A DNA stretch of 64,000 nt, taken from contig OZ241869.1 of NCBI GenBank assembly GCA_965202805.1, positions 1,888,001 through 1,952,000 on the forward strand, read 5' to 3'. The DNA is from Longimicrobiales bacterium. Lineage in GTDB: Bacteria; Gemmatimonadota; Gemmatimonadetes; Longimicrobiales; Gaopeijiaceae. The position numbers were made by a program. Positions within the stretch are counted from its first letter, which is position 1, and every line of letters starts with the position of its first letter. This document shows, in pieces, positions 27,001-39,000 of this stretch.

Positions 27001-30000
27001 ATCGTGGGCGTGTCCTTCTGGGTCGGGGCCGGGTTTCAGAGTGGAGCGATATCGACTGAAGGGCTGACGCCGTTCCTGCAACAGATGCTCAACAACGGGA
27101 TGACGTCGGGCGGGCTGACCGCGCTCGCGCTGACGGCGTTCATGGAGCTGACCGGGCCGAGGCGCGTGCGCATGGAGACCGCGCTCGAGGTCGGGTCGCT
27201 GCCGAAGATCCAGGAGTTCCTGGAGGGGTTCGCGAGCCGCAAGCGCCTCGGGGCGGAGACCGGGCTCCGGCTGGGGCACGCCGCCGAAGAGACGCTCCTG
27301 CTGCTCATCGAGGACGGCGAGGGCGAAGCGTCGGCCGGACAACGCCGGCTGCGCCTGACCGCGCGCACCGATTCGGGCGGGGTCGAGATGGAGTTCCTGG
27401 CCGCCAGCGGCGAAGGCAACATCGAGGACCGCATGGCGGTGCTCGGCGGGCACGCCGCGGAGGAGCCCGGGGAGCACGAGATCTCGCTGCGGCTCCTGCG
27501 GCACCTCGCGACATCCGTGCATCACCACAAGTACCAGGACGCCGACATCGTGACGGTGCGGGTCGAGGCGGCCACGGCGACGGGGTAGCCCTCGAGCGGT
27601 GTGCGAGCGGCGCGGGTGGAGGCGGCCTGGCCCTCGCGCGGATCGAGCGTAGCGCGAGCGGTGCGGACCCGCGCCCGCTCAGGGAATCCTGATGGCCGCG
27701 CCCACGCCGGCGAAGAAGTCCTCCGCGGCATCGTTCAGCCCGACGCCGACCCGGATGTCCCATTGCGCATCATCGGCCGTGAGCCAGGTCAGGCCCGCGT
27801 TGAAGTAGTGCTCCTTCGGGGCATCGGTCCCCACGGGCAGAAACGCGTACCATTCGCCGTACACGCCGCCGCGCGTTCCGAGACCGGCTCCCGCGACCGC
27901 CGACTGGGCCCATTCGGGGTAGCCGTCGCCGCCCTCCGCGACGGCCAGGTTGACCTGCGTGCTGCCCGCCAGGGAGAGGCCTCCGGGCACATCCCAGCCG
28001 TAGGCGAGGTTCACGCCCGGCAGCACGCGTCCGCCGGAGAACAGGGTGCTGCCCGTGGGCAGGGTCATCTGCGGCACGAGCGCGAGCGCCGGAATGCGAC
28101 CCGCCTGCCGGGTGAGTCGGAGCTTGGCGCCCAGGTAGAGGTCTTCGATCCCGGTCTCGCTGGCCCCGTTCGCCTCCGAATCCACGCGGGTCACCGGGGT
28201 GGCCGCGACCCGGAATTCGAGCCAGTCCGCCGCGACACCCCTGCGCAGCAGCATTTCGCCCAGCTTGTGGGTGTGGACCGAATTGCCGCCGGACCAGTCG
28301 CCGCTGAACGCGTAACCGAACTCGATCTGAAGCACGCCCCGGCCCACGGTGGAAGTCCCCTCCGTGAAATCCGGCCGTTCGGCGGCCAGGGGGCGGGACG
28401 CCGGGGAGGTGGCCGGTGCCCGGGCAGGCTCCTGCGCGGATCCGTCCGCCGGGTGCCCGAGCATCGTGCCACCGGTCAGGGCGGCGAGCAGGCACGCGAG
28501 AATCAGTCGAGTGGTCATGGCATCATCAAGGTAATCGGTCTGCCGGTTTGGCAGGCTTCCCCGGCGAAACCCGTCCGGGCCGAGTTGCGGCGGTGGGCAG
28601 ACCACCCCGGTTTTCCCGCCCGCCGCAATTGCCGCTAGTTTCAGGGCATGAACAACGTCATCCGGGCATCCGTCCAGAGCCGTGGCCTTCCGCGCATCCT
28701 GCGAGGCTCCCTCGTGGTCGCGGCCCTGGCCGCCTGCGACGACCTCGGCCCCCAACCGCCCCTGGGATCTCCCGCGCGCCGTGCCGCGGTGCTCGCCATC
28801 TCCCCCGAGTCGGCGACGCTCTCGTCGCTGGGTGAGACGACCACGTTCAGCGCCGCCCTCACCGACCAGTTCGGGGAGGCGTTCGCGGGCACCGTCGGGT
28901 GGTCGAGCAGCGACCCGGGCGTGTTCACCGTGACCCCCACCGGAGTGGTCAGCGCCGTCGCGAACGGATCGGGTACGGTGACCGCGTCGTTCGAGGCGCT
29001 GAGCGCGACCGCGCAGGTGGTGGTGGCGCAGGCCCCCGCGGCCGTCGTGGTCGTGTCGGGGGGCGGGCAGGAGGGGATGGCGGGCGGCACGCTCGCCGAG
29101 GCGGTGGTGGTGCGGGTGGACGACGGGGGCGGCTCGCCGGTCGAGGGCGCCACCGTGACCTTCTCGGCCGCCGAGGGGCACGGGTCGGCCGACCCCGCCA
29201 CCGCGGCCACCGACGCGGCCGGCCTTGCCCGCACGACCTGGACGCTCGGCAACGCGGCCGGCGCGCAGACCCTCACGGCGGCGGCGGCCGCAGGAGTGTC
29301 GACCGACATCCGCGCGGCCGCGGGCGAGCTCCCCACCCCGCCCGACTCGGCCGCCTACAGCGTCGTCTTCGACGCCACCTGGAGCGCCGCCACCCACCCG
29401 AGGGACTTCCCGCGCAGCGCCCACTTCTCCGCGCTCATCGGGGCGGTGCACAACGACGGCGTCCGCTTCTGGGCAGGCGGCGAGACGGCCAGCGCCGGGA
29501 TCGAGAGCATGGCCGAGACCGGCGGGACCAGCACGCTCAGGTCGGAGATCCGCGCCCGGATCCCCGGCAACGCCCTCTCGGTCATCAGCGGACCCGGCCT
29601 CGGCACCAGCCCGGCCCGCGCGACCCTCTCCCGGTTGGTCGTCCGGGTGGAATACCCCCTCGTCACCCTGGTCACCATGATCGCCCCGAGCCCGGACTGG
29701 TTCGTGGGCGTGTCCGGGCTTTCGCTGATGGACGAGTTCGGGCAGTGGGTGGAGGAGATCGAGTTCACCCTCTACCCGTACGACTCCGGCACCGACGACG
29801 GCACCAGCTACAACTCCGCCAACGCCGACTCCTCCCCCAGACAGCCCATCCACAGCCTCCGCGGCGAAGCCCCCTTCTCGAGCGCGCCCATCGGAACGTT
29901 CACCTTCACGCGCATCGGGAGTTAGCGGGCTCGGGTGCAGATCGGCGCCGTAGCGCGTATTATTTCACCAGTGTGCGCGACAACGCTCCCCCAACTCCGA

Positions 30001-36000: not shown

Positions 36001-39000
36001 AGTGAACCGCGCGCTCGAAGCCGCGGGATTTCAAGTCATCGAGGGAAGGGACTGGAACGTCCAGGAGGGACCCTCCACGCCCTGGTATCAACCAATGGAG
36101 AGTCGCCACGGGACATTGGGGAACGCCCTGCGAAGGCTTCCCTGGGGCCGCAAGGCGATCATCGCGGGATCGAAGCTGGCCGAGGTATTGCGGATTTTTC
36201 CGAATGGTTCGACGGAAGTCGTTCGGCTCCTCGATCGAACCGCGGAGGCGTACGTCGCGGGCGGCAAGACGGGTATCTTCACGCCGCTGTACTGTTTCCT
36301 GGCTCGCAAACCCCCAGACTCGACGGGCTAGGTCGCTCGATCCGTTCCTCTTTCCGTGCTCCTTTTCGAGATCGCATCGTCGCCACGCCCAGACTTAATT
36401 CCGGATAGAACTGACGGCAATACAGGCGGTACTTGCCGATCGGGCCGTCGGCCCGGCAGAGACGCGGCGGAGACCGGTAGCGCTTCCGCTCCCAGATGAC
36501 CACGTCCTGCGCCACGAACCGTCTCTCTTCATGCATCACCATGCGGTTCATCAGCCTGTTGCGGAGCTTCCTCGGCAGGAATCCCATGCCCACGATGTAC
36601 CGCCCCGGCTTCCGGACCTCCCGCGCCTGGCTGACCAGGGTCAGCTCGACGAACTCGCCGTCGACGGGGGTCGAGAGGACCCACAGCCTGGAGTCCATGC
36701 CGATCGTCTTCTCGTGGAATTCGACGAACGAGTAACCCAGTCCATGGACATGCGTGACGGTCGACACATCGGAGACGACGTCGATCAGCCCCGCGATGGT
36801 GTGGACGCTCCTGAAGTCGAAGCAGCTCTTCAGGTACGCGCCGTCGATCGAGAAGGCCGTCGGTTCCACGTCGTGGTAGCCGTGCGTGTACTCCAGGTGC
36901 TCCACGTCCACCGAGTTCTCGGTCGTTTCCTGCGGATGGCCCCGGAAGCGCATGGTGGCGAATCGCAGTCCGCTCCAGTCCGCGCCCGCGGGTGGCTCTT
37001 CCGGCAGGCGCCACTGCGGTTCCCGTCCGCCGGCGCCATACCAGGCGAAGACCATGCCGAGGATCTCGGTGGTCTCGTAGAGCTTCAGCTTCGCGGCCCG
37101 GGGCGGCGGGGCGTTGGGCGTGGCGACGCACTGGCCGGTGGTGTCGAAGGTGAAGCCGTGGAAGGGACAGACCAGGCAGCCGTCCCGGATGGTGCCGCCG
37201 GCCGCCGGCCCCAGGTGCGAGCCCAGGTGGGGGCAGAACGCGTCGGCCACGCAGACGCGGCCGTCGTCGTCGCACCAGGCGACGATCTCCTCGCCCATCC
37301 AGGTCTTCTCGATGAGCTTCTCTTTCCGCAGGGTCTCGCGGGTCGCGATGAAGTACCATCCCTCCGGGAACGGAGGAAGTTCATCGAGGCGGCGCGGGAC
37401 CCGGCCATTGCTGTTGCCGATCATCTGGCTCCGCCCCGGTGGAGTGGCGAATGGCGGCCGATCAGACTCATGGGACCCCCCGTAAAGGCTCGTGTGACCC
37501 AAGCTAACTGTTGCTGCCTTCGGCTCCTGCGGCCTCCGCAAATGTCGCGCCACGCGCGCAGTTTGGCAAACACCTGCGACATAATGCTGAAATTATGCGA
37601 CGATTTCGTGTGACGGCACCTGATTCATCCGCAAGATGTTGCCCGAACGTCACGCCGCACTCACCGTCATGTGGATGGTGCAGCCGCAACGCTGTGGAAT
37701 GGTGCAGCCGTGACGCCTGTGGAAGCGGCTGGCGGGGCCCAACTGACCGTAGGAGGTGACTCATGTCCGAGATGAATCGACGCACGTTTCTGGGTGCGGG
37801 CGCGGCGGCTGGCGCCCTGGCCGCGTTTGGCGGCTGCACTGCTCCGGGCGGGGAGGCCGGTGCGGATGGTGACGCGAGTGCGGGGAGCGGTGGCGGGGGC
37901 CAGGAGAGCGCCCCGGGCGGCGTGCCGGACTTCGCGCTGGACGAGATCACGATCGATGAGGTCCACGAGGGCATGCGGACGGGCGAGTACACCTGCCGTT
38001 CGATCACGGAGATGTACCTCGATCGCATCGAGGCGCTGAACCGCCAGGGGCCGCGGCTGTTCGCGGTCCTCGAGGTGAACCCGGACGCGCTCGAAATCGC
38101 CGACGCCCTCGACCGCGAGTTCCAGGCCTCGGGGCCGCGGGGTCCGCTGCACGGCATCCCCCTTCTCCTGAAGGACAACATCGATACGGCGGACGGGATG
38201 ACGACGACCGCCGGGTCGACGGCGCTCGCGGGGTCGATCGCGCCGCAAGACGCCTTCGTGGCCGCGCGGTTGCGGGAGGCGGGCGCGCTCCTGCTCGGCA
38301 AGGCCAACATGAGCGAGTGGGCGGGCTGGAAGTCGTTCGAGTTCGGGGCGTCGGGCTGGAGCGGCCGCGGCTGGGACGGCGGACGGGGCGGCTTCTGCAG
38401 GAACCCCTACGCGCTCGACCGCACCCCGGGCGGGTCCAGCTCCGGGTCCGGGTCCGGCGCGTCGGCCAACCTGGCGGTGGCGGCGATCGGCTCCGAGACC
38501 GACGGCTCCATCGTCGGCCCGTCGTCGCGCAACTGCCTGGTCGGCATCAAGCCCACGATCGGGCTGCACAGCCGGGGCGGCGTCATCCCCATCGCCCACA
38601 GCCAGGACAGCACCGGCCCGATGGCGCGCACCGTGCGCGACGCCGCGATCATGCTCGGGACGATGGTCGGCGTCGACCCGCGCGACCCGCTGACCGCCGC
38701 GAGCGCGGGCAACTTCCTGACCGACTACACCGGGGCGCTGGACCCGGCCGGGCTGGGCGGCGCGCGCGTCGGCGTCCTGCGCGAGTACGCCGGCTTCGAC
38801 AGCCGCGTCGACGCCCTCTTCGAGGAGGCGCTCGAGGTCATGCGGGCGGAGGGCGCGACGGTGGTCGACCCCGTGACGCTCCCCGGGGAGCTGCGCTTCG
38901 GCAACGAGTACGAGATGGAGGTGCTGTACCACGAGTTCAAGGCCGACCTGAACGCCTATCTCGCCTCGCTGGGTCCCGACGCGCCGATCAAGTCGCTCGC

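What a model noticed while it worked through the whole genome (the two positions that open the first line are those of the whole stretch)
27679..37424. Sterol side-chain methyltransferase cassette in a closed genome with no triterpene cyclase
A lower-GC cassette encodes a bona fide-looking sterol C-24 methyltransferase (g01545) beside a GPP34-cytochrome P450 fusion (g01544), a Neverland/KshA-type Rieske oxygenase (g01546), an RND/MMPL pump (g01543) and an outer-membrane hydrophobic-compound channel (g01541), yet the closed 4.02 Mb genome has no oxidosqualene or squalene-hopene cyclase. Boldest reading: this bacterium cannot make sterols but imports sterols of a eukaryotic host (sponge) and tailors them (C-24 alkylation, ring desaturation/oxidation). 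New if true: side-chain-alkylated 'eukaryotic' sterol biomarkers could be made by cyclase-less bacteria from scavenged sterols, and GPP34-P450 would be a new lipid-handling enzyme arc [...]
Evidence so far: g01545 (348 aa): 40.3% identity over 300 aa to Arabidopsis SMT1 (E 1e-70), 36% to ERG6 (swissprot.tsv, call 43); Pfam Sterol_MT_C over cut; motifs WSWGESLHFAP and VDIGCGVGGP. g01546: Rieske+KshA_C, all five best Swiss-Prot hits are cholesterol 7-desaturases (Neverland/DAF-36, 25-30%, E to 4e-36). g01544: GPP34 (15-215) + p450 (420-653). Six-frame searches of the genome: PF13243 0 hits and PF13249 0 hits at E<=0.01; ERG4_ERG24 only one sub-threshold 84-position match (22.6 bits, call 143); no SQHop, squalene epoxidase, lanosterol synthase or sterol 14-demethylase row or title in pfam.tsv/swissprot.tsv. 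Genus: SMT in 14 of 19 genomes, cyclase domain in 2 of 19, both fragmentary bins with 6% co [...]
(Added by a program. Inside this text positions count along the whole contig: contig position 1,888,001 is position 1 of the stretch shown here. "Call 12" and the like, gene names such as g00115 and contig names such as C1 are that model's own, and its searches are not shown. The text may have been shortened before it was handed on; [...] marks where a part breaks off. The agent that wrote the report below was given it as the finding of a first reader that could run no searches.)

Follow-up and report, generated by a model that had tools for sequence, protein, structure and literature searches.

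The report
Sponge-symbiont lipid-tailoring gene island
A 7.8-kb island in this sponge bacterium, which has no sterol-making cyclase, carries an efflux pump, a GPP34-P450 fusion, an unusual sterol-methyltransferase relative and a steroid-type oxygenase; the same set recurs in sponge symbionts of many phyla and probably reworks sterols that the cell does not make.

Summary
The genes are real and the closed 4.02 Mb genome has no triterpene cyclase. The cassette needs redrawing. The unit is a low-GC 7.8-kb insertion (window ~29,920-37,743): AcrB-type RND pump, GPP34-P450 fusion, SMT-family methyltransferase and KshA/Neverland-type Rieske oxygenase. The Spondin_N gene is a resident neighbour. The outer-membrane channel lies outside the island.

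The same set recurs, reshuffled, in titled MAGs of at least 12 phyla. Next to 80 SMT orthologs (70-92% identical) lie GPP34-P450 in 76, the Rieske gene in 68 and the RND pump in 50. Where sources could be identified they are sponges, plus one coral. Of 50 such genomes, 39 have no full-length cyclase.

In five loci the module directly abuts a canonical de novo sterol cluster. This is the best evidence here that the substrate is a sterol.

The methyltransferase belongs to a separate clade with a remodelled sterol-binding Region I. An ortholog assayed in print was, by inference, inactive on the usual C-24 substrates. So C-24 alkylation is doubtful, and the pump points to export rather than import.

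The GPP34-P450 fusion and host-sterol methylation by cyclase-less bacteria are both already in print. The linkage of these genes into one module was not found in print.

The parts
29920..37743 (.). Inserted island of about 7.8 kb. GC is 0.61-0.67 against 0.70-0.74 in the flanks.
   Evidence: blastn to the empty sites of SMT-less genus-mates G040 and G064 stops at 29,912/29,919 and resumes at 37,743/37,745. There the Spondin gene abuts the amidase gene. GC profile. No flanking repeat of note.
30014..33208 (+). RND inner-membrane transporter of the AcrB/MdtB type, 1064 aa. No adaptor or outer-membrane factor lies beside it in this genome.
   Evidence: Pfam ACR_tran 517.7 bits over profile positions 10-1019 of 1021. 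Best PDB match MdtB, E 7.5e-69. NCBIfam RND_permease_2 407.8 bits, cut-off 1250. Orthologs lie next to the SMT in 50 of 80 loci. A 56% paralog with HlyD and OEP sits at G000:C1:70.6-76.5 kb.
33240..35273 (+). GPP34-cytochrome P450 fusion ('GPP34_L'), 677 aa from the ATG; the ORF opens at a TTG at 33135. It starts 31 bp after the RND gene and ends 11 bp before the SMT gene.
   Evidence: Pfam GPP34 109.9 bits and p450 115.6 bits. The E-x-x-R and F-x-x-x-G-x-G-x-H-x-C-x-G heme motifs are visible in the translation (motif names recalled). Best PDB hits are CYP51s at only 67 bits. Fused in all 75 loci where both domains were found.
35285..36331 (+). SMT-family SAM methyltransferase of the 'type A' clade, 348 aa.
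   Evidence: Pfam Sterol_MT_C 57 bits plus methyltransferase domains. The Region II motif D-x-G-x-G-x-x-G-P is intact and Region I is remodelled. One clade of 25 rows with SH-like support 100 and stem 0.68. dN/dS 0.19-0.30.
36279..37424 (-). Rieske non-heme-iron oxygenase of the KshA/Neverland type, 381 aa. It is convergent with the SMT gene and overlaps it by 52 bp.
   Evidence: Pfam Rieske 61.3 bits and KshA_C 85.8 bits. Best PDB match KshA, E 3.8e-21. Nearest named Atlas clusters are 'cholesterol 7-desaturase', score 0.97. NCBIfam SdmA model scores 33.3 bits against a cut-off of 600. C-x-H...C-x-x-H and D-x2-H-x4-H motifs are present (motif names recalled).
27679..28497 (-). Outer-membrane beta-barrel protein (Phenol_MetA_deg). 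It lies outside the island and is at most a lineage-specific accessory.
   Evidence: Pfam 80.8 bits. GC is native. Found in 0 of 80 cross-phylum loci. Within the genus it is present in the 6 SMT-bearing genomes examined and was not found, with this query, in the 4 SMT-less ones. Kin are not independent.

Best explanation
The island is one copy of a horizontally spreading module carried by sponge symbionts. Its core is an RND exporter, a GPP34-P450 fusion, an SMT-family methyltransferase of a distinct clade and a KshA/Neverland-type Rieske oxygenase. Often a FAD oxidoreductase is linked as well; in this genome that gene sits elsewhere, at C1:462.9-464.3 kb.

Proposed mechanism (inferred): a sterol that the cell cannot make, taken from the host or from cyclase-bearing neighbours, partitions into the cell membrane. 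The Rieske oxygenase and the P450 desaturate or hydroxylate it, with the GPP34 domain acting inside the bacterium as a lipid-binding or membrane-docking module. The methyltransferase then adds a SAM methyl group. It probably acts on a substrate or position other than the classical delta-24 side chain of desmosterol and 24-methylenecholesterol. The RND pump moves the product to the outer membrane or out of the cell.

Shown here: gene content, insertion, linkage, distribution, absence of cyclases, purifying selection and intact cofactor motifs.
Inferred: the substrate class, the order of steps, the regiochemistry and the direction of transport.
For: (1) No endogenous route. G000 has 0 hits to PF13243 and PF13249 at E<=10. 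tblastn with the SMO-OSC fusion, OSC and ERG24 of family-mates gives 0 hits; sdmA, sdmB and CYP51 queries give only weak generic matches.

(2) Linkage despite reshuffling. Among 10 related loci, 8 hold all four genes in differing orders and orientations. Among 80 loci from titled MAGs of 12 or more phyla, GPP34-P450 is present in 76, Rieske in 68, RND in 50 and all three in 45. Among the 61 full 20-kb loci the counts are 60, 54, 39 and 35. Where the AcrB-type pump is missing, an MMPL/sterol-sensing-domain RND is often present. Some transporter is present in 55 of 61 full loci.

(3) Tie to sterols. In L078, L084, L092, L146 and L147 the module directly abuts SMO-OSC, CYP51, ERG24, sdmA and sdmB. 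That cluster matches the de novo clusters of family-mates G094 and G007 and of Brown 2023 Supplementary Data 1.

(4) Mostly cyclase-less carriers. 0 of 11 type-A genomes in the order sample have any PF13243 match. 39 of 50 cross-phylum carriers have no full-length cyclase, and only 5 have the OSC-like class.

(5) Host link. All 80 best metagenome loci come from ten accession series. 35 of them lie in series that Brown's Table S4 names as sponge metagenomes. Runs labelled 'sponge metagenome' hold the island. GPP34_L is reported as exclusive to sponge symbionts and as expressed in Aplysina aerophoba (PMC11706023, passages and section 19).

(6) Function is maintained. dN/dS is 0.14-0.41 for all four genes and the cofactor motifs are intact.

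(7) Late-step enzymes only. The Rieske protein is not SdmA (33 bits against a cut-off of 600). The P450 is not a CYP51 (67 bits, against 190-bit full-length p450 matches for the cluster CYP51s).

(8) Precedent. Nematodes are sterol auxotrophs. Their SMT relative has a remodelled Region I and methylates C-4 rather than C-24 (PMC6997595, passages). That they also use a Neverland-type Rieske enzyme and a P450 on dietary cholesterol is recalled, not checked.
Against: - There is no chemistry for any member of this clade.
[quoted passage not shown] The enzyme could therefore act on a non-sterol, or be inactive in that assay for trivial reasons.
- SQS_PSY genes occur in 49 of 50 carrier genomes, many as tandem or fused pairs. 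G000 has a carotenoid cluster and a second, solitary SQS_PSY gene. Endogenous acyclic isoprenoids with sterol-like isoprenyl ends are thus available.
- Linkage is weaker around more divergent SMTs. In the 25 metagenome loci of 20 kb or more, the P450 is present in 13, Rieske in 11 and any transporter in 10.
- No redox partner for the P450 or the Rieske enzyme lies in the island.
- No uptake system is identified.
- G022 carries the SMT alone on a 19.8-kb contig.
- Many carrier genomes are MAGs. Their phylum labels come from record titles and were not checked.
Confidence: 0.5

Rival explanations
1. One reading: the enzyme is a classical sterol C-24 methyltransferase. It alkylates the delta-24 side chain of scavenged host sterols and makes 24-alkyl 'eukaryotic' biomarker sterols.
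For: The Sterol_MT_C domain and SAM motif are present. The enzyme is a member of the SMT family tree. 20 of 24 bacterial SMTs tested by Brown 2023 were active C-24 methylases (section 7). Of the Region I positions, G84 (58 of 66) and W85, H90 and F91 (66 of 66 each) are kept in type-A sequences.
Against: Y81M (58 of 66), E82V (53 of 66) and F89L (58 of 66) replace residues of the Y81EYGWG86 / GWGXXFHF signature. [quoted passage not shown] The 2025 preprint states that GWGXXFHF is conserved in all functional SMTs. The ortholog on the assayed Nitrospirales contig reads GWGESLHF, so it should be among the inactive ones. This is an inference, because the per-enzyme table is an image.
Confidence: 0.13
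2. The substrate is not a sterol. It is instead an acyclic or other isoprenoid with a terminal isoprenyl double bond: the cell's own squalene or carotenoid, or a host terpenoid. The module methylates and oxidises it and exports it to the envelope.
For: SQS_PSY is present in 49 of 50 carriers, often as tandem or fused pairs, although most lack a cyclase. G000 has a carotenoid cluster (CruF-like, CrtI-like and glycosyltransferase genes) and a solitary SQS_PSY gene. The frequently linked FAD enzyme is of the amine-oxidase/CrtI superfamily. SMT-like enzymes that methylate squalene in Botryococcus are recalled, not checked.
Against: The module abuts complete de novo sterol clusters in five loci, not carotenoid or squalene genes. 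The Rieske enzyme's nearest relatives act on steroids. The alternative transporters carry sterol-sensing/Patched-type domains. SQS_PSY is common in bacteria generally, 8 of 14 control genomes. A sponge-restricted distribution is not explained by a self-made lipid.
Confidence: 0.18
3. The published reading of GPP34: the GPP34-P450 protein is a secreted effector that binds host PI4P and blocks phagosome maturation. Its neighbours are unrelated.
For: PMC11706023 proposes this from the PI4P binding of eukaryotic GOLPH3 and the sponge-only distribution (section 24 passages). G000 also has a short GPP34 gene elsewhere.
Against: The fusion lies 31 bp after an RND gene and 11 bp before the SMT gene (coordinates). 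It is linked to the SMT in 76 of 80 loci. No N-terminal signal peptide is apparent by eye in the translation. A P450 needs heme and a bacterial redox chain. That paper has 0 occurrences of 'sterol', 'methyltransferase' or 'RND' in its main text, so this context was not weighed.
Confidence: 0.07
4. Defence rather than tailoring: the module inactivates and pumps out a toxic host steroid or terpenoid, such as a saponin aglycone or an antibacterial sterol.
For: The pump is AcrB-type, with HlyD in 24 and TolC-like partners in 13 of 80 loci. Oxygenases together with a pump are typical of detoxification. Brown 2023 cites a sponge sterol with antichlamydial activity (discussion).
Against: C-methylation by an SMT-family enzyme is anabolic and unusual for detoxification. 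Fusion to de novo sterol clusters in five loci suggests a product the cell wants. The same module occurs across several different sponge hosts and one coral with different chemistries.
Confidence: 0.08
5. De novo sterol synthesis through an unrecognised cyclase.
For: HMM absence alone cannot exclude a new cyclase type. SQS_PSY genes are present.
Against: Beyond the cyclase, the squalene epoxidase fusion, ERG24, CYP51, sdmA and sdmB are also missing or only weakly matched in G000. Family-mates that do make sterols carry the canonical set. No conserved unknown gene travels with the module across phyla. The recurrent extras are a FAD oxidoreductase, HlyD, OEP, MMPL, a TPR protein, a GH116-like protein and an outer-membrane barrel.
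Confidence: 0.04

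Closest known systems
Bacterial de novo sterol clusters with SMTs in sponge-symbiont metagenomes (Brown et al. 2023, PMC10070321; sections 7 and 9, Supplementary Data 1 and Table S4 read)
   Same: Both contain an SMT-family gene in symbiont genomes. In five loci the module is physically appended to exactly this cluster. One such contig, L078 of 70,077 bp, is the paper's 'Nitrospira sp., coral reef' contig.
   Different: G000 and most carriers lack OSC, CYP51, ERG24, sdmA and sdmB. The SMT belongs to another clade with a remodelled Region I. The Rieske, GPP34-P450 and FAD genes are not listed as sterol genes in the paper's Supplementary Data 1.
GPP34_L, the GPP34-P450 fusion of sponge symbionts (PMC11706023; abstract, passages and sections 19 and 25 read; one supplement searched)
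   Same: Same architecture, same restriction to sponge symbionts, same spread over many phyla. It is reported in 92.6% of 54 sponge Gemmatimonadota.
   Different: That paper reads it as a secreted PI4P-binding effector. Here it sits in an apparent operon between an RND pump and a methyltransferase, linked in 76 of 80 loci, which points to a lipid enzyme working inside the bacterium.
Sterol tailoring in sterol-auxotrophic nematodes: the 4-SMT (STRM-1) of PMC6997595 (passages read); the roles of DAF-36 (Neverland Rieske) and DAF-9 (P450) are recalled
   Same: An organism without a cyclase uses an SMT relative with a remodelled Region I, a Neverland-type Rieske oxygenase and a P450 on exogenous sterol.
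   Different: Those are animal enzymes. In this module W83 and W85 are kept and the changes are Y81M, E82V and F89L. Regiochemistry is unknown.
Chlamydiae MAG SMT without a sterol pathway (Brown et al. 2023, discussion)
   Same: An SMT in a bacterium unlikely to make sterols. The authors ask whether host-acquired sterols are methylated.
   Different: That enzyme is an active propylating 24-SMT, and no linked module is described in the parts I read. Here there is a closed genome, a four-gene island and a different SMT clade.
Lipid RND exporters BstA and HpnN (PMC10942540; passages read)
   Same: An RND transporter is encoded next to sterol or hopanoid genes and is thought to carry the lipid to the outer membrane. 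Module loci without the AcrB-type pump carry MMPL/sterol-sensing-domain RNDs of that superfamily.
   Different: G000's pump is ACR_tran (AcrB/MdtB-like); its MMPL match is only 24 bits. No BstB- or BstC-like partner was sought.

Membership tests
Sterol methyltransferase family (Pfam Sterol_MT_C plus class I methyltransferase) | C-terminal Sterol_MT_C domain above the gathering score, together with a SAM methyltransferase domain | tested here: met
   PF08498 57 bits (cut-off 21.7) and PF08241 63.8 bits.
Sterol methyltransferase family | Region II SAM-binding motif D-x-G-x-G-x-x-G-P | tested here: met
   The window enzyme reads D-I-G-C-G-V-G-G-P. D, G, G and P are invariant in 66 of 66 type-A and 6 of 6 type-B sequences. 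The motif is as given in the 2025 preprint.
Sterol C-24 methyltransferase (ERG6/SMT1 type) | Region I signature Y81-E-Y-G-W-G86 and G-W-G-x-x-F-H-F (yeast numbering) | tested here: not met
   The window enzyme has M81, V82, W83, S84, W85, G86 and L89. The clade shows Y81M in 58 of 66, E82V in 53 of 66 and F89L in 58 of 66. Type-B sequences are canonical in 5 of 6; B_L033 differs downstream of GWG. Signatures come from PMC6997595 and the 2025 preprint.
Sterol C-24 methyltransferase (ERG6/SMT1 type) | Methylates desmosterol or 24-methylenecholesterol in vitro | not testable with these tools
   By inference only: the ortholog 'Nitrospira sp., coral reef 2 of 2' was assayed. It has L89, while F89 is stated to be conserved in all functional SMTs. 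The result table is an image.
CYP51 sterol 14-demethylase | Strong full-length similarity to CYP51s | tested here: not met
   The best CYP51 chains score 67 bits, E 8e-18, in the same range as CYP120, taxadiene hydroxylase and BM3. The CYP51 of a family-mate matches the fusion at 27% over 105 residues. The cluster CYP51s score 190 bits over the whole Pfam p450 model, against 115.6 bits over its second half for the fusion.
SdmA (bacterial 4-methylsterol monooxygenase) | NCBIfam NF052579 at or above 600 bits; Rieske plus VanA_C architecture | tested here: not met
   33.3 bits, on the Rieske domain only. The window protein has KshA_C, whereas the sdmA genes of de novo clusters have VanA_C.
KshA/Neverland-type Rieske steroid oxygenases | Rieske 2Fe-2S motif, mononuclear iron motif and a KshA_C catalytic domain | tested here: met
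   Pfam Rieske 61.3 bits and KshA_C 85.8 bits. C-P-H...C-P-F-H and D-V-E-H-L-E-Y-T-H are in the translation (motif definitions recalled). KshA E 3.8e-21. Named Atlas neighbours are 'cholesterol 7-desaturase'. Which steroid position is attacked is not testable here.
GPP34_L (GPP34-P450 fusion of sponge symbionts) | GPP34 and p450 domains in one polypeptide; found in sponge symbionts | tested here: met
   Both domains lie in one ORF. They are fused in 75 of 75 genome loci and 37 of 37 metagenome loci where both were found. Sponge origin of this genome is shown.
HAE1-type multidrug RND pumps (AcrB) | Full-length ACR_tran; NCBIfam RND permease at or above its cut-off; adjacent adaptor and outer-membrane factor | tested here: inconclusive
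   ACR_tran 517.7 bits, but NF033617 scores 407.8 bits against a cut-off of 1250. There is no adaptor beside it in G000. HlyD lies in 24 and OEP in 13 of 80 related loci.
Genomic island (horizontally acquired insertion) | Present or absent at a conserved site, deviant composition, relatives in unrelated taxa | tested here: met
   Empty site in G040 and G064. GC 0.61-0.67 against 0.70-0.74. 70-92% identical SMTs in MAGs titled as 12 or more phyla. dS 0.13-0.57 to loci titled as three other phyla. No integrase, tRNA or flanking repeat was identified (tRNAs were not scanned).

The most novel reading that the evidence does not exclude
The type-A enzyme is a new regiochemical class of sterol methyltransferase. 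It may act on the side-chain terminus (C-26/C-27), on another olefin, or on the ring as in nematode 4-SMT. Together with the Rieske, GPP34-P450 and FAD partners, it would let cyclase-less symbionts of a dozen phyla convert host sterols into the 'unconventional' sterols for which sponges are known. Part of the sponge sterol and sterane signature would then be symbiont-made from host substrate. GPP34_L, the most sponge-specific symbiont gene family yet reported, would be a sterol enzyme rather than a secreted effector.
Probability: 0.2. Interest if true: 0.9.

Novelty: new variant of a known kind. Interest (0 to 1): 0.74.

Why it matters
Two published observations have stood apart. One is GPP34-P450 fusions as a hallmark of sponge symbiosis. 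The other is the 'second', apparently inactive SMT genes in symbiont sterol clusters. Here they turn out to be parts of one conserved, mobile gene set.

That set is mostly carried by bacteria that cannot make sterols. This gives a concrete, testable candidate for how symbionts handle host sterols. It also offers candidate enzymes for sponge sterol modifications whose enzymes are unknown; Brown et al. name C-26 methylation as undiscovered. The question bears on how far side-chain-alkylated steranes can be read as animal biomarkers.

The finding also argues for re-examining the phagosome-effector model of GPP34_L.

Tried and rejected
- Expression: no RNA holder was listed for the island.
- Earlier findings of this scan: nothing to show.
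- Mobility mechanism: no flanking direct or inverted repeat above the chance level. No integrase or transposase among the neighbours scanned. tRNAs were not scanned.
- Per-enzyme assay result for the ortholog 'Nitrospira sp., coral reef 2 of 2': not in the text of PMC10070321, its held supplements, its 2022 preprint or the 2025 preprint. The tables are images, one supplement PDF had no readable text, and bioRxiv supplements are closed.
- None of the other contigs named as assayed appears among my best 80 metagenome loci. These are Ga0209021_1000146, LXNJ01000389, LXNJ01004423, LXNI01004480, LXNI01006544, LXNI01016685 and the scaffolds of JGIcombinedJ30088_1000330310 and _100209763.
- The maximum-likelihood tree did not finish in time. 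A FastTree with SH-like support only was used instead.
- The idea that the P450 is a CYP51 and the Rieske protein an SdmA, meaning a truncated de novo pathway acting on protosterols, was considered and rejected.
- The idea that the Spondin_N gene is the pump's periplasmic partner was rejected. It is present at the same site in SMT-less genus-mates and in only 2 of 80 loci.
- Paper searches that found no description of the linked module:
  - 'Gemmatimonad' + 'sterol methyltransferase': 0 papers.
  - 'sponge' + 'symbiont' + 'sterol methyltransferase' + 'Rieske': 3 papers, none describing it from the listing. One was read in passages; it describes a de novo msb cluster only.
  - 'sponge microbiome' + 'steroid' + 'biosynthetic gene cluster' + 'oxidosqualene cyclase': 0 papers.
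  - 'GPP34' + 'cytochrome P450' + 'bacteria': 5 papers.
  Library coverage is partial.

Full report
**What is there.** The stretch 27,679-37,424 holds six real genes:
- An outer-membrane Phenol_MetA_deg barrel, 27679-~28497 (-). The 724-aa ORF listed there is over-extended; only its last ~270 residues match.
- A Spondin_N/Big-domain protein, 28648-29925 (+).
- An AcrB-type RND pump, 30014-33208 (+), ACR_tran 517.7 bits.
- A GPP34-P450 fusion, 33240-35273 (+).
- A methyltransferase with a Sterol_MT_C domain, 35285-36331 (+).
- A Rieske/KshA_C oxygenase, 36279-37424 (-).

The RND, P450 and SMT genes are 31 and 11 bp apart, which suggests an operon. The Rieske gene is convergent and overlaps the SMT gene's end. 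Heme, 2Fe-2S, mononuclear-iron and SAM motifs are intact.

**No cyclase.** The genome is a single 4,020,862-bp contig, 98% complete. It has no match to either cyclase Pfam domain even at E<=10. Two members of the same family (G094, G007) carry the canonical bacterial de novo sterol cluster: sdmB, sdmA, ERG24, CYP51, an SMO-OSC fusion or OSC, and an SMT. I used their proteins as tblastn queries on G000. OSC, the SMO-OSC fusion and ERG24 gave 0 hits. sdmA, sdmB and CYP51 gave only weak generic matches. The observation of a cyclase-less SMT carrier stands.

**The unit is smaller than proposed.** GC falls to 0.61-0.67 only from ~29.5 to 37.4 kb. The outer-membrane protein and Spondin genes are at 0.71-0.74. 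In two closed or near-closed genus-mates without SMT (G040, G064) the Spondin gene lies directly beside the amidase gene. DNA homology to the window ends at 29,912/29,919 and resumes at 37,743/37,745. The island is therefore ~29,920-37,743 and holds RND, GPP34-P450, SMT and Rieske.

The four SMT-less genus-mates have only a short GPP34 gene and no Rieske ortholog. The exception is a 77-residue remnant in G064, which suggests loss there. The outer-membrane barrel was not found in those four, but is present in the six SMT-bearing genus members examined. This is a lead for a lineage-specific accessory. It is absent from all 80 loci in other lineages, and kin are not independent. No integrase or flanking repeat was seen.

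**A module shared across phyla.**
- In a sample of 151 genomes of the order, SMT relatives occur in 17, all in one family.
- Eleven of the 17 are 'type A' (66-100% identical to the window's). None of these 11 has any PF13243 match.
- The 37-45% identical 'type B' SMTs sit beside a cyclase in G094 and G007.
- Around ten further type-A genes, eight loci hold all four island genes in different orders and orientations. One has a divergent P450, and one (G022) has the SMT alone on a 19.8-kb contig.
- A scan of one genome per species found 556 stretches encoding relatives. The best 80 are 70-92% identical. Their titles name MAGs of Gemmatimonadota, Rhodothermales, several Acidobacteriota classes, Latescibacterota, Dehalococcoidia, Nitrospirales, Nitrospinota, Actinomycetes, Binatia, Thermodesulfobacteriota, and Alpha- and Gammaproteobacteria. 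These titles were not checked.
- Within 10 kb of the SMT lie GPP34-P450 in 76 of 80 loci, Rieske in 68, the AcrB-type RND in 50 and all three in 45. In the 61 full-length loci the counts are 60, 54, 39 and 35.
- All-against-all clustering of neighbouring ORFs added further recurrent genes: a FAD amine-oxidase-family protein (38 of 80), HlyD (24), a TolC-like OEP (13), MMPL/sterol-sensing-domain RNDs (19, in loci without the AcrB type), a TPR protein and an outer-membrane barrel. Some transporter is present in 55 of 61 full loci.
- G000 has the FAD gene unlinked, 77-78% identical, in its own low-GC patch beside a Fic gene.
- dN/dS is 0.14-0.41 for all four genes. Synonymous divergence to loci titled as other phyla is only 0.13-0.57 for the RND, P450 and SMT genes (Rieske 0.63-1.26). 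For one locus it is lower than that of the flanking housekeeping genes to a genus-mate. This fits recent transfer, if the titles are right.

**Weaker replicate.** In the metagenome collection, 93 stretches encode relatives and the best 80 span 57-95% identity. Linkage is lower there. In the 25 loci of 20 kb or more, the P450 is present in 13, Rieske in 11 and a transporter in 10. The tight linkage therefore holds for the close clade, not for every relative.

**Sponge link.** The 80 metagenome loci come from ten accession series. 35 loci are in four series that Brown et al.'s Table S4 names as Aplysina aerophoba, Petrosia ficiformis and Sarcotragus foetidus metagenomes. I did not verify the origin of the other 45. 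Runs labelled 'sponge metagenome' from two studies hold 0.69-0.87 of the island's sampled words. PMC11706023 reports the GPP34-P450 fusion as exclusive to sponge symbionts. It found the fusion in 92.6% of 54 sponge Gemmatimonadota and saw it expressed in A. aerophoba metatranscriptomes. That several isolate-name prefixes belong to sponge and coral MAG series is recalled, not checked.

**Why a sterol.** In two Nitrospirales genomes (L078, L084), one untitled 'bacterium' MAG (L092) and two metagenome contigs (L146, L147; the latter from the A. aerophoba series), the module directly continues a canonical de novo cluster. The order in L084 is SMO-OSC, CYP51, ERG24, sdmA, sdmB, type-B SMT, FAD oxidoreductase, outer-membrane barrel, Rieske, type-A SMT, GPP34-P450, and then a housekeeping gene. 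Yet among 50 carriers, only 5 have an OSC-like cyclase, 9 have an SHC-like one, and 39 have no full-length cyclase. The split into OSC-like and SHC-like rests on score class and ORF length, by analogy.

The module's own enzymes are late-step types. The Rieske protein is not SdmA (33 bits against a cut-off of 600), and its nearest relatives are KshA and clusters named cholesterol 7-desaturase. The P450 is not a CYP51. Together this favours tailoring of a finished sterol that most carriers must obtain from outside.

**Why probably not classical C-24 methylation.** Type-A sequences read F-M-V-W-G-W-G-E-S-L-H-F in Region I; G000 has S at the first G. Type-B and nearly all other family representatives read F-Y-E-[YFW]-G-W-G-x-S-F-H-F. 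In a FastTree of 139 family members, the type-A sequences and their nearest representatives form one clade of 25 rows, all with L89. SH-like support is 100 on a stem of 0.68 changes per column (no bootstrap, midpoint root only).

PMC6997595 calls the aromatic residues of Y81EYGWG86 required for 24-SMT catalysis. It shows that a nematode SMT relative lacking them methylates C-4 instead. The 2025 preprint of Brown and Welander states that GWGXXFHF is conserved in all functional SMTs they tested.

L078 is a 70,077-bp contig, the same length as their 'Nitrospira sp., coral reef' contig. It holds two SMTs spaced as their gene numbers 2682229274 and 2682229270. The second is type A, reads GWGESLHF, and is 77% identical to the window's enzyme. 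It follows, by inference, that it was one of the two inactive environmental SMTs. I could not read the result table.

**Direction of transport.** AcrB-type pumps with HlyD and TolC-like partners export. The alternative MMPL-type RNDs are of the BstA/HpnN superfamily, which is thought to carry lipids to the outer membrane. Nothing in the island suggests import.

**What is new and what is not.** In print already:
- Bacterial SMTs.
- The thought that a cyclase-less bacterium may methylate host sterols (Chlamydiae).
- The GPP34-P450 fusion.

Not found in what I read or searched:
- That these genes form one mobile module with a Rieske oxygenase and a pump.
- That the module is carried mainly by cyclase-less symbionts.
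- That its SMT is a separate clade with a remodelled substrate site.

The main text of PMC11706023 has no occurrence of 'sterol', 'methyltransferase' or 'RND', and its held supplement has none of 'sterol'.

**Limits.**
- There is no chemistry and no expression data for this genome.
- MAG titles are unchecked.
- Counts come from the best 80 hits of larger sets.
- SQS_PSY genes are present in 49 of 50 carriers and twice in G000, once in a carotenoid cluster. A non-sterol isoprenoid substrate therefore remains a live rival.

Noticed in passing
G000:C1:462888-464264 (outside the window; L199:7886-9505): A FAD amine-oxidase-family gene 77-78% identical to the one linked to the module in 38 of 80 loci. 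It sits alone in a low-GC patch (0.60-0.65) beside a Fic-domain gene. Its best PDB relatives are LkcE and a 'putative aminooxidase' (2b9w).
   Followed up: partly
L034 (G058:C2:2150400-2170390), 9339-11583: A second, diverged pairing of an SMT-family gene (37% identical) with a Rieske/KshA_C gene (29% identical), in a genome that also has the type-A module and no cyclase match. The SMT-Rieske pairing thus recurs independently.
   Followed up: partly
G028:C2:769813-779670 (not fetched): This genus-mate has the outer-membrane barrel (84%), a GPP34-P450 (56%) and the Rieske gene (86%) close together. Its only SMT match is a 43% type on another contig, and it has no cyclase match.
   Followed up: no
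L202 (G064:C2:2285000-2297000) and G064:C2:2297317-2297547: The xanthine/uracil permease is broken into three frame-shifted pieces, and a DUF4143/AAA_14 gene lies between it and the Spondin gene. A 77-residue Rieske remnant lies beyond the amidase gene. The locus looks like a decayed former carrier.
   Followed up: partly
window 39524-40678: An AAA_14/DUF4143 ATPase gene in a second lower-GC patch (0.65). It occupies different positions in genus-mates and may be mobile.
   Followed up: no
many G-handles (e.g. G163, G167, G168, G170, G172-G174, G176, G178, G197): Tandem or fused pairs of SQS_PSY genes, HpnC/HpnD-like by arrangement, in module carriers that have no cyclase match. The use of that squalene-type product is unexplained.
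   Followed up: no
L029 (G094:C3:1972500-1992490), 10688-15723: The de novo sterol cluster of this family-mate is flanked by DUF772 transposase, rve integrase and IstB genes, so the canonical sterol cluster may itself be mobile in this family.
   Followed up: no
L035 against the window: Synonymous divergence of the RND, P450 and SMT genes to a MAG titled Rhodothermales is 0.13-0.21. That is below the 0.23-0.38 of the flanking housekeeping genes to a genus-mate. This means either very recent transfer between phyla or a mislabelled MAG.
   Followed up: no
G000:C1:1060751-1061350 (L200:5701-6567): A stand-alone short GPP34 gene (Pfam 154.5 bits), 40% identical to the fusion's GPP34 domain, next to a diaminopimelate epimerase gene. 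Orthologs are present in all five genus-mates searched, including those without the module.
   Followed up: partly
G000:C1:2124000-2141000 (L205): A carotenoid cluster: a B12-binding regulator-like gene, Caroten_synth, SQS_PSY, a full-length amine-oxidase (CrtI-like) gene and a glycosyltransferase.
   Followed up: partly
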